Virus record (IMG/VR): IMGVR_UViG_2681813228_000018
Strand: one strand, 5' to 3'
DNA from: a virus
Taxonomy: Duplodnaviria > Heunggongvirae > Uroviricota > Caudoviricetes
Length of the DNA: 16,059 nucleotides
Shown here: positions 1-3,000 of the stretch, in pieces
Position numbering within the stretch: position 1 is the first letter of the stretch
Layout: each line of letters starts with the position of its first letter
Position numbers: made by a program

Positions 1-3000
1 CAGTGACTGCACCCCGAAGGTGACCCGCAGGCGGTCAATGTTCGCGGACGTAATGGTGCGCGTCACCGGCTTTGCCTTCGTCACTTCCACGCCCAGTGCG
101 GTTTCCGCCCCGGAGGACTCAAAGCCTTCCGGCGGTGTCTGCTCCTGCTCCCCGGCGCGCCAGACCGCTGTCACACCATGTATCACAGGATTACCGTCCG
201 TGTCCGTCAGCGGGGTTTTGTTCACCAGGATACTCTGCAGCCCCTTCACCGGACCTTCAATCGGCCCTTCACCAATGGCGTCAATCACGCTCATCATCTG
301 CGTGGACTTAAGATTGTCCTTTGCCTCTACCGGCGTGTGCGCCTTGCCGCCCCCTTTACCCACTCTGTCCCCCTCTCCTGTCTGATGTCTGAATCTGTTT
401 ATGCCCCAAAAACGACAGGCACCCCGGAGGGTGCCTGTGTCATGACGGAATAAAATTTCTGAATTTCTTCACATTTTCTGTACGCCCCCGTGGCAGATAT
501 CATTCCCGGGCGTTACAGTTTTTTCGGGCCAATAAAAACAAAACTCCCTGTGGTTAATCTTCATTTTCTGTTCCCGCAGCCTCCATACACTGCGGGATTT
601 TTTTATTCTTTTTACCTCTGCCGCCCGATAACCACGACCTTTCCGCCCCCGCCCTCATCACGGGTGCTGATGTCCTGGGATATCCGTCGTGAACCAACCA
701 GCATTTCACCGTAAGGCACCGGCATCGGGTTCCCCTGAGCAATCATGTTATCCAGCGAGGAAAAGTACGTGTTCTGTCTGCCGTTATCCGTGCTTTTGTA
801 CTCCGGTACTTTAGCCTTCGGGGCCAGCATCTGAGCCACACCACCCAGAATCATGCTGGCCCCCAGAGAAAACAGCATCGTGGTGGCAGAAAAACCACCG
901 GCTGCCAGGGCTGAACCCCATAACGCCATTGATGCCCCGGCCGTGAAGAACGACCCCACGATGGCTGCCGCCCCCAGCACAATCTGCAGTCCGCCCTTTC
1001 CGGCCCCGGCCAGTCGCGGCACAATGTGGATGACCGTTCCCTCACCCAGCTGTTCGTGAAGACGGGCGTACACCGCCTCCGGTGCCGTGTCATCACCGGC
1101 AATACGTATCTGGTACCAGCCTTCGTTCATCTGACGGCGGAATCCCGGCATCTGCATCGACAGGGCACGGATGGCTTCCGCTGCCGTGTTCACATACAGG
1201 CTGAGGCGGCGGCCAAATCGTTGTAAATCCCCGTGAAGGCAGATACGTGCCAGTGGCGGTGACGCCAGGCTGAATGCGTTCGTCGTTGCCATTTTTCGGA
1301 ATACCTCTCCCGTTTACTCAGTTGTTCAGGCAGATGGTGAAGCAGCTCACCGTTGCCGCAGTATATGGCGGCATGATTGGCCACCGATGCGCCAAAGCAG
1401 CACAGCAGGATATCGCCAGGCTGTGCGGAAGGCAGGGAAATCCTGTAAAAACCAGTCGCCGCCATATTGTCCAGGTAAAGGTTCTGACCGTTGCGCCACC
1501 AGTCATCCTCACGCACAAAATCCGGCAGCGTTATCCCCGCCAGATGGTATGCATCCCGGAACAGGGTGTAACAGTCCGTCACCCCGTGCTCAAAACGACG
1601 CCCGGTCAGGTGCGGCACACAGCGGAATTTGTGAATTTCCCCCCGGCAGACCAGCCACCAGGGCAGGGCACTCTTTATCTGCAGCCGCCGGTCCGCCTCG
1701 CTCAGCCAGGGCAGACCACCAGGGTGGCTGTGAACCAGCGCCACAATCTCCCCCTGCATCTCTGCCTGCAGCCAGTCTTCCGGCGCAATACGAAAATACG
1801 CCTCCGGCTCTGCGGAGATATTCACGCAGGGCTGGTACCGTTCGCCCTCCGGGGTGCCTATCACGAAGCCGCACGACTCCGCAGGCGCACACCGCCGGGC
1901 ATGCACCAGAATCGCTGATTCAGTCTGTGTCATAAAACAGGATTTACTGCGAAAGTTTATTGATGGAAAGGAAACCGCCAAAATTAGCCACCATGCCGCG
2001 CATCTCACACCCGCGCATGCACTTGCTGCATCTGTCCTTACGGATATCCGTGGTGGGGTTGTCGAACTCATCCGCCACCGCAGGACCGTTATACCCGCAT
2101 TCATCTCCCCGGTAATCCCACATACAGGTGTTCGCCAGCATGATGCGACCGGGAAACAGCGCTCCGTCCGTCTCCGTCGGTGTGGCCAGCACAAACGAGG
2201 CCGTCATGGCCGTCAGCTCTGACATCTGCTCCACCACCCACCGGTCAGTCAGCTCCTGCTCCGGGTCGGCCTCCGGATTGCCTGCCACAAAGTTCACCGC
2301 ATCCAGAAAACGCGCATACACCCGGCGGCGGACCACCGTGGCACCCACCAGGCTCTGCAAATCCTCCGCCATCCCGGTGACAAGACCGAACAGATTGGAC
2401 ACCGTCAGCGACGGGCGGGCACTGCTGCCCTTTCCGTTCATCTCAAAGCCGCTGCCCTCAATCGGGTACGCCTGATATTCACGCCCCTGCCAGGTCACCG
2501 AATTTAACCGACTCGTTCAGACTTTCTTCATGAATGTCCTGCATCAGTTCACCACCTGCTCAATCGTACAGCTGAAATCACTGTACCGGGCGTTATCCGT
2601 GACGCTCCACTCCCGGCACACCACCCTCACCGTCCGGTTATGTTTCGGCGGTCGCCACAAAAAGGCACGGTAACCACCATGCCAGGATAAAAATTCATCC
2701 AGCCAGCGCCGGGTTGACTCATCCGTCACCCGGAACACCGCCTGAAACGTCTTCAGTTGAGGATTCAGCCCTGTGGGGCGGCGCTGTTCATAACCGTCAC
2801 CAAACCGCACCCTCACCACCGACGGCTTCTCACTCACCTGCATCCCTTCACGCGGGACCAGATGCAGCGTTTTTATCTCAGCCACTCAGCATTCCTCCGT
2901 CACGTCGCATGGACAGCATCACCGCCTGCACCCGCTGGTCAATCAGCTGCACAAGACTGCCCGCAGCTTCCGGCCCTATCTGGCCATTAGTCCCGTCATT

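What the first reader, a model, noticed from the sequence alone, without database searches (positions are those of the whole stretch)
364..611. Insert of ~250 bp between tail genes I and J with two convergent terminator-like hairpins and a 31-codon ORF
In lambda the I-J gap is about 60 nt, as I recall; here it is 248 nt. The segment holds a plus-strand-oriented hairpin plus T-run right after the I stop (573-605) and a strong minus-strand hairpin with a C(UCCG)G tetraloop and U-run (408-438) about 45 nt before the J start. Between them is a 31-codon minus-strand ORF (564..469, MKINHREFCFYWPEKTVTPGNDICHGGVQKM) with no convincing ribosome-binding site. Convergent terminators around a short segment are the signature of a small independently transcribed insert such as an sRNA, a moron remnant or a regulatory RNA. 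Alternatively the minus-strand terminator could make J expression depend on antitermination.
Basis: partly seen in the sequence, partly recalled or inferred. Interest (0 to 1): 0.55.

Follow-up and report, generated by a model that had tools for sequence, protein, structure and literature searches.

The report
Known prophage small RNA gene, new variant
The extra ~190 bases between tail genes I and J are a sequence variant of a published Hfq-dependent prophage small RNA gene (PasB in EPEC, EcOnc22-24 in EHEC), sitting beside a terminator hairpin that many lambda-like phages carry just before gene J, so the feature is real but largely already explained.

Summary
The I-J gap is 248 nt (364-611), against 60 nt in lambda, and both hairpins are far more stable than shuffled sequence.

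- **Plus-strand hairpin (572-597, U-run 598-604).** This is the terminator of a ~94-nt sRNA gene (about 511-604, +) that runs antisense to the tail operon. It sits at the same locus as PasB in EPEC E2348/69 and EcOnc22/23/24 in EHEC Sakai. Both are northern-validated at about 83-85 nt and are Hfq-dependent. A covariance model built without window-type sequences hits 511-606 at 70.9 bits (E = 8e-13).
- **Minus-strand hairpin (438-408).** This is not part of the insert. Lambda, N15, mEpX1, mEp213, eight Enterobacterales prophages and T1-like virulent phages have an analogous hairpin plus U-run just before J, each with a different sequence.
- **31-codon ORF.** It is not conserved. The start codon is lost in 37 of 97 variants and the frame and length vary. 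Its ATG is simply the complement of the conserved sRNA motif AAUCUUCAU.

What is new is modest. The window type is an unannotated allele that the published PasB survey would have missed, and the PasB = EcOnc22-24 equivalence is not stated in the papers I read.

The parts
511..604 (+). PasB/EcOnc22-family sRNA gene, window-type allele (predicted ~94 nt), antisense to the tail operon
   Evidence: A covariance model (CM) built from 15 homologues, with window-type sequences excluded, hits 511-606 (+) at 70.9 bits, E = 8e-13, full length. It is syntenic with PasB in E2348/69 and with EcOnc22 in Sakai Sp15. The 5' end is inferred from the -10 box and from conservation of CGUUA, not mapped.
572..604 (+). 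Intrinsic terminator of the sRNA: 8-bp stem UCCCGCAG/CUGCGGGA, 10-nt loop, U7; it ends 7 nt from the I stop codon
   Evidence: dG -13.9, z -4.5. All 76 unique homologous variants keep a 3' hairpin (-9.4 to -18.8 kcal/mol) followed by 4-8 U. The loop is hypervariable, and some types carry a different complementary stem.
545..571 (+). Predicted single-stranded seed region (CUCCCUGUGGUUAAUCUUCAUUUUCUGUU) holding the two motifs conserved across alleles, ACUCC and UUAAUCUUC(A/G)U
   Evidence: Unpaired in the predicted folds. These are the conserved columns in alignments A2 and A3. Zhu et al. place the PasB seed just 5' of the terminator.
498..503 (+). Predicted -10 box TATCAT of the sRNA promoter; the aligned -35 position is poor (TTCTGT, 476-481)
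   Evidence: The aligned column block reads TATAAT, CATAAT, AATAAT or TATCAT in most of the 97 unique variants. The E2348/69 type has TTCACA-16 nt-TATAAT. The strict promoter scan finds nothing here.
441..480 (.). Nearly invariant A+T-rich block (+ strand CATGACGGAATAAAATTTCTGAATTTCTTCACATTTTCTG), at -70 to -31 of the predicted sRNA start; it contains a CRP-like TCTGA-N6-TCACA at 458-473
   Evidence: Conserved in IGR variants anchored independently on J, even where the sRNA gene or the pre-J hairpin has been replaced. The CRP-like match is not significant alone: 1 hit against 0.51 expected in the window. A role as UP element or activator site is inference.
408..438 (-). Pre-J sense-strand intrinsic terminator (10-bp stem, UCCG loop, CG + U5), 45 nt upstream of the J start
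   Evidence: dG -24, z -4.4. Compensatory C:G to U:A variants occur in related prophages. Analogous hairpin + U-run in lambda, N15, mEpX1, mEp213, Bigdog, three Drexlerviridae phages and eight Enterobacterales prophages.
379..392 (-). Two tandem copies of the heptamer TCAGACA in the J 5' leader
   Evidence: Read directly. Copy number is 2, 3 or 4 in the related prophages that have the repeat; two IGR types lack it.
361..378 (-). J ribosome-binding region (GGAGAGGGGGACAGA) and GTG start codon
   Evidence: The translation matches the lambda J N-terminus at 72% identity.
469..564 (-). 31-codon ORF: judged not to be a gene
   Evidence: Of 97 unique variants, 57 keep ATG, 37 have ACG or ACA, and 3 lack the motif. 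The peptides are 6 to 35+ aa with frame changes after about 4-10 residues. The ATG is the complement of the conserved sRNA motif CUUCAU.
612..1292 (-). Tail assembly gene I (context: upstream neighbour)
   Evidence: (66% identity to lambda I).

Best explanation
Relative to lambda, about 170-190 bp have been added between the I stop codon and the ancestral pre-J terminator. The added DNA is a compact sRNA cassette in the orientation opposite to the late operon. It has three parts: an A+T-rich upstream block (441-480), a sigma-70-type -10 box (TATCAT, 498-503), and a ~94-nt RNA (about 511-604) ending in an intrinsic terminator with a U7 tail.

The RNA is an allele of the PasB (EPEC) / EcOnc22-24 (EHEC) family. 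From its homologues I infer that it is made in the lysogen while the tail genes are silent, that Hfq stabilises it, and that it acts in trans through the single-stranded region just 5' of the terminator (motifs ACUCC and AAUCUUCAU). Because it is fully complementary to the I-J junction of the late mRNA, it could also act in cis on that transcript; this is untested.

The minus-strand hairpin is a separate and older element. It is an intrinsic terminator-like hairpin just before J that is common in lambda-like tail modules. It would stop or attenuate sense transcription that is not antiterminated, and Q-modified polymerase in lambdoid phages would read through it.

- **Shown here:** anatomy, homology, synteny, conservation of the terminator, -10 box and motifs, and non-conservation of the ORF.
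- **Taken from papers:** expression, size and Hfq dependence of the homologues.
- **Inferred:** the start site, the seed, the role of the upstream block, and the activity of the window allele itself.
For: **Synteny and homology**
- PasB (NC_011601.1 1466343..1466261, minus strand, 83 nt) lies between I (ends 1466255) and J (starts 1466496) of prophage PP6, antisense to them.
- The window gap and its short flanks align with the PP6 gap at 86% mean column identity, and both hairpins are present.
- The EcOnc22/23/24 northern probe maps to the I-J gap of Sakai Sp15, on the strand that detects an RNA antisense to the tail operon, just 5' of the homologous terminator.
- Tree et al. report a band of about 85 nt that is destabilised in delta-hfq.

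**Expression of the homologue**
- Pearl Mizrahi et al. report northern validation, Hfq-dependent stability and 37 RIL-seq interactions for PasB.
- In what appears to be the same expression table, baseMean is 482 for pasB against 4.8 for I and 15 for J.

**Tests on the window copy**
- A CM built without window-type sequences hits 511-606 (+) at 70.9 bits, E = 8e-13.
- All 76 unique variants keep a terminator hairpin plus U-run.
- The -10 box and the two motifs are conserved across sequence types.
- The gap sequence occurs at 2997 places in 786 of 5426 complete E. coli genomes, median 4 per genome, and in 147 phage records, mostly Stx phages.

**Pre-J terminator**
- Lambda.
- Eight Enterobacterales prophages.
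- N15, mEpX1 and Stevie, where depositors annotated it as a terminator.
- Seven of ten sampled diverse phages have it.
Against: - There are no expression data for the window-type allele itself.
- Its promoter has a 5/6 -10 box but no recognisable -35, and the strict promoter scan finds nothing.
- The window allele differs from PasB and EcOnc22 in the 5' half and at several seed positions, so its targets and abundance may differ.
- The main terminator stem is invariant in most types, so covariation support is limited to the alternative-stem types. RNAalifold predicted no consensus on alignment A2.
- The start site is inferred: the predicted RNAs (about 90-96 nt) are somewhat longer than the reported 83-85 nt.
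- Termination by the pre-J hairpin has not been measured.
Confidence: 0.85

Rival explanations
1. The window-type copy is a decayed, non-expressed relic of the PasB/EcOnc22 gene. The hairpins persist, but the promoter (no -35, -10 TATCAT) no longer fires.
For: The -35 is poor and no promoter is called. Only the E2348/69 type has a good -35 (TTCACA, 16-nt spacer). No published peak or northern for this allele turned up.
Against: The Sp15/EcOnc22 type has an equally poor -35 yet gives a northern band. The window type is the commonest unique variant in the IMG/VR sample (36 copies). Its best match is at least 99% identical in 254 E. coli genome records. It keeps the -10 box, the motifs, the terminator and the U7 tail intact.
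Confidence: 0.1
2. The main role of the plus-strand RNA is in cis. As a perfectly complementary antisense RNA it pairs with the I-J junction of the late mRNA and lowers J (and downstream lom, tail-fibre and effector) expression, or triggers processing there. The trans targets would be secondary.
For: The gene is always antisense at this junction. It has full complementarity over about 94 nt, ending 7 nt from the I stop codon. The cassette is retained at the same site across many I and J alleles.
Against: RIL-seq in EPEC found 37 trans interactions typical of a trans-acting Hfq sRNA. No chimeras with E2348C_1436 or E2348C_1437 appear in the stored part of the table. In lysogens the late mRNA is nearly absent, so a cis target rarely exists. 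The seed motifs are conserved while the rest of the RNA diverges, which points to trans constraints.
Confidence: 0.2
3. The minus-strand terminator is the 3' end of a sense-strand small RNA, either with its own promoter in the conserved block or processed from the I 3' UTR, and that RNA uses the hairpin plus U-run as an Hfq-binding module.
For: The terminator is strong with a U5 tail and is preceded by a highly conserved 40-nt block.
Against: There is no credible sense-strand promoter (and manual inspection). There is no Hfq-CRAC peak on that strand in the Sp15 list. There is no sense IGR entry in the stored EPEC RIL-seq tables. Analogous hairpins sit 10-45 nt before J in phages that lack the block.
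Confidence: 0.07
4. The 31-codon minus-strand ORF (564..469) encodes a small protein translated from the late mRNA.
For: The ORF is open in the window, and MKIN... is shared by many variants.
Against: The start is ACG or ACA in 37 of 97 unique variants. Lengths run from 6 to 35+ aa with frame changes. There is no Shine-Dalgarno sequence outside the hairpin stem. The shared N-terminal codons are the complement of the conserved sRNA motifs.
Confidence: 0.03

Closest known systems
PasB (pathogenicity-associated sRNA B) of EPEC O127:H6 E2348/69 prophage PP6 (Pearl Mizrahi et al. 2021, PMC8550237; Zhu, Shabalina & Storz 2026 preprint)
   Same: Same locus (I-J gap), same antisense orientation, same terminator stem UCCCGCAG/CUGCGGGA with a U7 tail, the same -10 position, and the shared motifs ACUCC and AUCUUCAU. 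The CM match is 70.9 bits.
   Different: About 30% of positions differ, by eye. The 5' half, the terminator loop and several seed-region bases are different, and the good -35 of the E2348/69 allele is absent. No 28-nt exact word appears to be shared by inspection (not checked with a script), so the published survey (blastn word size 28, query coverage >75%) would probably not have counted this allele. The survey describes PasB as usually single-copy, whereas this gap sequence occurs at a median of 4 places per genome.
EcOnc22/EcOnc23/EcOnc24 of EHEC O157:H7 Sakai prophages Sp15, Sp14 and Sp11 (Tree et al. 2014, PMC4104026)
   Same: Hfq-CRAC peaks. The northern probe maps to the I-J gap antisense to the tail operon, immediately 5' of the homologous terminator. 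The RNA is about 85 nt and is destabilised without Hfq.
   Different: A different sequence type: the probe region reads GGGAGAGAACGATGAAGATTAAC in Sp15 and GGGAACAGAAAATGAAGATTAAC in the window. No function is assigned. Neither Pas paper's text or tables that I searched link EcOnc22-24 to PasB.
Pre-J rho-independent terminator annotated in phages N15 (between gp20 and gp21), mEpX1 and Citrobacter phage Stevie; an unannotated equivalent exists in lambda
   Same: A GC-rich stem, short loop and U-run on the sense strand, 10-45 nt upstream of the J start.
   Different: The sequences are unrelated. In the window it is separated from I by the sRNA cassette. Three of ten sampled phages lack it (mEp554, KS9, Pseudomonas R656).
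Morons of lambdoid phages (promoter-gene-terminator units inserted between late genes)
   Same: An autonomous transcription unit inserted between two late genes and expressed from the prophage. The same junction holds sodC in other E. coli prophages and a lipoprotein-like ORF in Enterobacter prophages.
   Different: The cargo is a non-coding RNA in antisense orientation, not a protein gene.
AgvB / AsxR anti-sRNAs of EHEC prophages
   Same: Prophage-encoded, Hfq-bound and terminator-ended small RNAs found in the same study.
   Different: They lie at the P_R' moron site near Q and the lysis genes, not in the tail operon. No Rfam model, including those of AgvB and AsxR, matches the window.

Membership tests
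PasB / EcOnc22-24 prophage sRNA family | Located in the I-J intergenic region of a lambdoid prophage, transcribed antisense to the tail operon, with its 3' end a few nt from the I stop codon | tested here: met
   The window U-run ends at 604 and the I stop is at 612-614. In E2348/69 the PasB 3' end is 1466261 and I ends at 1466255.
PasB / EcOnc22-24 prophage sRNA family | Sequence and structure homology to the validated members | tested here: met
   CM R1, built from 15 homologues with no window-type sequence, hits window 511-606 (+) at 70.9 bits, E = 8e-13, model positions 1-97 of 97. It is the only hit in the window.
PasB / EcOnc22-24 prophage sRNA family | 3' intrinsic terminator with a poly-U tail (Hfq-binding module) | tested here: met
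   8-bp stem plus U7, dG -13.9, z -4.5. Kept in all 76 unique variants.
PasB / EcOnc22-24 prophage sRNA family | Own promoter upstream of the RNA | tested here: inconclusive
   The -10 TATCAT is at the position aligned with TATAAT, CATAAT or AATAAT in other alleles. There is no -35, and the consensus scan calls nothing.
PasB / EcOnc22-24 prophage sRNA family | Expressed as a discrete ~83-85-nt RNA whose stability depends on Hfq | not testable with these tools
   Shown for the E2348/69 and Sakai alleles only. No data were found for the window-type allele.
Rfam-curated sRNA family | A match at the gathering score to any Rfam 15 model | tested here: not met
   There were 0 hits at gathering score over the whole window, and only chance-level hits (E >= 0.056) in 300-700. 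Rfam appears to have no PasB/EcOnc22 model.
Intrinsic (rho-independent) terminator upstream of J | GC-rich stem-loop directly followed by a U-run on the sense strand | tested here: met
   438-408 (-): 10 bp with 7 GC pairs, tetraloop, CGUUUUU.
Intrinsic (rho-independent) terminator upstream of J | Conserved by position in other lambda-like tail modules | tested here: met
   Present in lambda, 8 of 8 Enterobacterales prophages and 7 of 10 diverse phages. Depositors annotated it as a terminator in N15, mEpX1 and Stevie.
Intrinsic (rho-independent) terminator upstream of J | Actually terminates transcription, and is read through by Q-modified polymerase | not testable with these tools
   This needs in vitro transcription or reporter assays.
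Small protein-coding gene (31-codon ORF) | Conserved start codon, reading frame and ribosome-binding site | tested here: not met
   The start is lost in 37 of 97 unique variants, lengths run from 6 to 35+ aa, and frames shift. There is no free Shine-Dalgarno sequence.
CRP-dependent promoter | TGTGA-N6-TCACA site at a class I or class II position | tested here: inconclusive
   TCTGAatttctTCACA at 458-473 (9 of 10 core bases) is centred about 45 nt upstream of the predicted start. There is 1 hit in the window against 0.51 expected by chance. PasB is higher in LB than in DMEM, which is compatible but not specific.

The most novel reading that the evidence does not exclude
The I-J junction cassette is a hyper-allelic sRNA locus. 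At least six sequence types share a promoter block, a terminator and two short motifs, but differ in the rest of the seed. STEC genomes carry a median of four copies on different prophages. The window type would then be a functionally distinct sRNA with its own target set, possibly switched by a conserved upstream regulatory site (UP element or CRP-like), and able to act in cis on J expression during induction. This diversity would have been missed because the published survey used near-exact matching.
Probability: 0.3. Interest if true: 0.5.

Novelty: new member of a known kind. Interest (0 to 1): 0.3.

Why it matters
The gap sequence occurs at about 3000 places in 786 of 5426 complete E. coli genomes, mostly Shiga-toxin producers. 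It carries no annotation in any of the RefSeq E. coli hits listed, and Rfam has no model for it.

Three things follow from recognising it as an allele of PasB/EcOnc22-24:
- It gives annotators a name for the feature.
- It links two literatures, EHEC CRAC and EPEC RIL-seq, that describe the same locus under different names.
- It suggests the family is larger and more variable than the published survey found.

It does not reveal a new kind of element. The pre-J hairpin is an ordinary, widely shared feature of lambda-like tail operons.

Tried and rejected
- **Rfam.** Searches at gathering score and at permissive thresholds found nothing real.
- **AgvB/AsxR.** I considered these from memory and rejected them: they lie at the P_R' moron site, not in the tail operon.
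- **EcOnc22 coordinates.** The coordinates in Tree et al. did not fit the current Sakai record. I resolved this by mapping the northern probes of EcOnc22 and EcOnc42, which showed an offset of roughly 100-150 nt between record versions.
- **Other Sakai copies.** EcOnc54 in Sp6 turned out to be a regulator/antirepressor moron between L and K. The Sp6 I-J region is degraded, with a truncated I followed by espX7. I found no Sakai copy of the window type.
- **Consensus structure.** RNAalifold on the 27-sequence alignment predicted no structure, because the alternative-stem types were out of register and the loops are long. I replaced it with per-sequence folding and a CM with the stem given by hand.
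- **Genome-contig scan.** Scanning with the I protein gave only 12 loci. They were still useful for the distant prophages.
- **Lambda literature.** A search for a described I-J terminator in lambda found nothing relevant.
- **CRP-like site.** It is not significant on its own.
- **Sense-strand promoter.** I looked by eye for one that could make a small RNA ending at 408, and found none convincing.
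Full report
**What is in the sequence**

The window is a lambdoid prophage late operon read on the minus strand. It runs from terminase through head and tail genes to tape measure, M, L, K and I, and then the start of J.
- I is 1292..612 and J starts with GTG at 363. The intergenic region is 364-611, 248 nt.
- In lambda, I ends at 15444 and J starts at 15505, a gap of 60 nt.
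- The minus-strand hairpin (stem 438-429/424-415, loop UCCG, then CGUUUUU to 408) has dG -24 kcal/mol and z = -4.4.
- The plus-strand hairpin (stem 572-579/590-597, 10-nt loop, U7 at 598-604) has dG -13.9 kcal/mol and z = -4.5.
- In both cases no shuffle out of 200 folds as well.
- The 31-codon ORF 564..469 (-) exists.

The two terminators face outwards rather than converging.

**How common it is**

The 248-nt segment is found at 2997 places in 786 of 5426 complete E. coli genomes. The median is 4 places per genome, nearly all chromosomal. None of the RefSeq hits listed has an annotated feature under the match. It also occurs in 147 phage records, almost all Stx-converting or other E. coli phages. 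No Rfam family matches it.

**Identity of the plus-strand element**

Two published data sets describe an RNA at exactly this locus.
- *EPEC.* Pearl Mizrahi et al. 2021 (PMC8550237, table S6) list PasB in E2348/69 at NC_011601.1 1466343..1466261, minus strand, 83 nt, in prophage PP6, between E2348C_1436 and E2348C_1437.
  - Those genes are I (ends 1466255) and J (starts 1466496), both on the plus strand. PasB therefore lies in the I-J gap, antisense, and ends 5 nt from the I stop.
  - Its northern probe AATCCCGCAGTG... is the complement of the terminator stem that the window also carries.
  - The window gap and its short flanks align with the PP6 gap at 86% mean column identity, with both hairpins present.
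- *EHEC.* Tree et al. 2014 (PMC4104026, table S2) list EcOnc22/23/24 in Sakai prophages Sp15, Sp14 and Sp11 as Hfq-CRAC peaks, with a band of about 85 nt that is destabilised in delta-hfq.
  - The first 23 bases of their 33-nt probe (GGGAGAGAACGATGAAGATTAAC) map exactly to the I-J gap of Sp15. They lie on the strand that detects an RNA antisense to the tail genes, immediately 5' of the homologous terminator.
  - The published peak coordinates are offset from the current record by roughly 100-150 nt. I checked this with the EcOnc42 probe.

As a formal membership test, I built a covariance model from 15 homologues that excluded every window-type sequence. It hits window 511-606 (+) at 70.9 bits, E = 8e-13, full length, and nothing else in the window.

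**Anatomy and conservation of the sRNA cassette**

I collected I-J gaps from IMG/VR in two ways: anchored on a conserved 23-mer, and independently anchored on the J N-terminus. This gave 97 unique sRNA-side sequences, or 76 after trimming to the RNA.
- The sequences fall into at least six types.
- Every one of the 76 keeps a 3' hairpin (-9.4 to -18.8 kcal/mol) followed by 4-8 U. The loop is hypervariable, and some types replace UCCCGCAG/CUGCGGGA with a different complementary stem, for example UCUCCCGUAAUAUUC/GAGUAUUACGGGAGA.
- A -10-like hexamer sits at one aligned position: TATAAT, CATAAT, AATAAT, or TATCAT in the window at 498-503. It is followed by a conserved GCGUUA.
- With a start near 511 the window RNA would be about 94 nt. 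The same reasoning gives about 90 nt for Sp15 and about 96 nt for E2348/69, against reported sizes of about 85 and 83 nt.
- Two motifs are conserved in the predicted single-stranded stretch 5' of the terminator: ACUCC and UUAAUCUUC(A/G)U. This matches where Zhu et al. place the PasB seed.
- Only the E2348/69 type has a good -35 (TTCACA, 16-nt spacer). The window and Sp15 types do not, and the strict scan calls no promoter.
- Upstream, at -70 to -31, lies an A+T-rich block (441-480). It stays nearly invariant even where the sRNA gene or the pre-J hairpin has been swapped.
- The block contains a CRP-like TCTGA-N6-TCACA, but one such hit in 16 kb is about what chance gives. I treat a role as UP element or activator site as inference only.
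- PasB is reported to be higher in LB than in DMEM. This is compatible with such a site but does not test it.

**The 31-codon ORF**

The ATG at 564-562 is the complement of the conserved CAU in AAUCUUCAU. Among 97 unique variants, 57 keep ATG, 37 have ACG or ACA, and 3 lack the motif. The encoded peptides run from 6 to more than 35 residues and change frame after the first few codons. There is no free ribosome-binding site. I conclude that it is not a gene.

**The minus-strand hairpin**

This element is not part of the insert.
- Lambda's own 60-nt gap contains AAACCGCC-UGCG-GGCGGUUU followed by UGUCAUUU.
- Eight Enterobacterales prophages, whose J N-termini are only about 34-38% identical to the window's, all have a GC stem, a tetraloop and U6-7 about 10-15 nt before J, each with a different sequence.
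- In a spread sample of ten phages carrying a J homologue, seven have such a hairpin: N15, mEp213, mEpX1, Serratia Bigdog, and the Drexlerviridae phages swan01, Stevie and phiwza.
- Three of the ten do not: mEp554, Burkholderia KS9 and Pseudomonas R656.
- The depositors of N15, mEpX1 and Stevie annotated it as a rho-independent terminator.
- Within the window-related prophages the stem shows a compensatory C:G to U:A change.
- The window's late operon has other intercistronic sense hairpins with U-runs, for example 13888..13871 after the large terminase gene and 7619..7605 before the major tail gene.

So the hairpin is an ordinary architectural feature. In a lambdoid phage, Q-modified polymerase would read through it, and it would stop unmodified transcription in the lysogen. 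Its presence in T1-like virulent phages, which to my knowledge lack Q-type antitermination, suggests that attenuation of J or stabilisation of the upstream mRNA 3' end is at least as likely a role. I could not test either.

**The junction as an insertion site**

Other prophages carry different cargo between I and J.
- Some E. coli prophages have an antisense Cu,Zn-superoxide dismutase (sodC) gene there, in addition to a PasB-like copy next to I.
- Two Enterobacteriaceae prophages (Enterobacter wuhouensis, Pseudocitrobacter faecalis) have a lipoprotein-like ORF in sense orientation, followed by the pre-J terminator.

This fits the moron concept. The sRNA cassette is a non-coding moron in antisense orientation.

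**Mechanism, with its basis**

- *Shown here:* the cassette's anatomy, its homology and synteny with PasB and EcOnc22-24, and the conservation pattern.
- *From the papers:* the homologues are discrete RNAs of about 83-85 nt, are stabilised by Hfq, and have 37 RIL-seq interactions. In what appears to be the same EPEC expression table, baseMean is 482 for pasB against 4.8 for I and 15 for J.
- *Inferred:* the window allele is expressed in the same way, uses 545-571 as its seed, and may also pair in cis with the late mRNA.

**Comparison with what is known, and novelty**

- The kind of element is known, and the window copy is a new sequence member of it.
- The published PasB survey used blastn with word size 28 and query coverage above 75%. 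By inspection the window and E2348/69 alleles share no 28-nt word, so the survey would probably have missed this allele.
- That survey describes PasB as showing only a few nucleotide differences and usually one variant per genome. The locus in fact holds several divergent types, and this gap sequence occurs about four times per STEC genome.
- Neither Pas paper links PasB to EcOnc22-24 in the text or tables I searched.

These are useful cross-references rather than a discovery. I score interest at about 0.3.

Noticed in passing
window 379-392 (-): The heptamer TCAGACA is repeated in tandem in the J 5' leader, between the pre-J terminator and the ribosome-binding site. The window has 2 copies. 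Related prophages that have the repeat carry 2, 3 or 4 copies; two IGR types lack it. This changes the leader length in 7-nt steps.
   Followed up: partly
L013 110-1000; L150-type loci: In some E. coli prophages the I-J junction also carries an antisense Cu,Zn-superoxide dismutase (sodC) moron. It lies between a PasB-like copy and J, and it replaces the conserved block and the pre-J hairpin. The sodC identification is from reading the translated sequence, not a database search.
   Followed up: partly
L008 2100-2780, L009: Two Enterobacteriaceae prophages (Enterobacter wuhouensis, Pseudocitrobacter faecalis) have a ~170-codon lipoprotein-like ORF inserted in sense orientation between I and J, followed by a pre-J terminator.
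   Followed up: no
L004, L006, L013 (genome contigs): Short contigs filed under Streptomyces flavalbus, Parendozoicomonas haliclonae and a Clostridiales MAG carry I genes 94-98% identical to this E. coli prophage. They are most likely contamination in those assemblies.
   Followed up: no
window 9116-11700 (-): Two ORFs (10336..11700, 454 aa, and 9116..10339, 407 aa) overlap by 4 nt. The corresponding 2585-nt stretch in a related O157:H7 prophage is annotated by RefSeq as a single frameshifted portal pseudogene. Whether this is a true pseudogene, two coupled genes or a programmed frameshift was not examined.
   Followed up: no
window 13871-13888 (-), 7605-7619 (-), 6141-6162 (+): There are further terminator-like hairpins, apparently intercistronic by ORF coordinates, in the late operon: after the large terminase gene, before the major tail gene, and a symmetric A4/U4 hairpin just upstream of the tape-measure start.
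   Followed up: no
L157-type loci (about 342-nt I-J gap; also L004 1127-1465): A longer gap variant keeps the E2348/69-type PasB gene and the first half of the conserved block. It then switches to unrelated sequence with a different sense hairpin (ACCCCGGTATC-TGCT-GATACCGGGGT + UUCUCUUU) about 120 nt before J.
   Followed up: no
L219 (Sakai Sp6, NC_002695.2 1576300-1578300): Sp6 has a regulator plus antirepressor moron between tail genes L and K, and the EcOnc54 Hfq peak appears to lie between them. Further on, I is truncated and followed by the effector-like gene espX7.
   Followed up: partly
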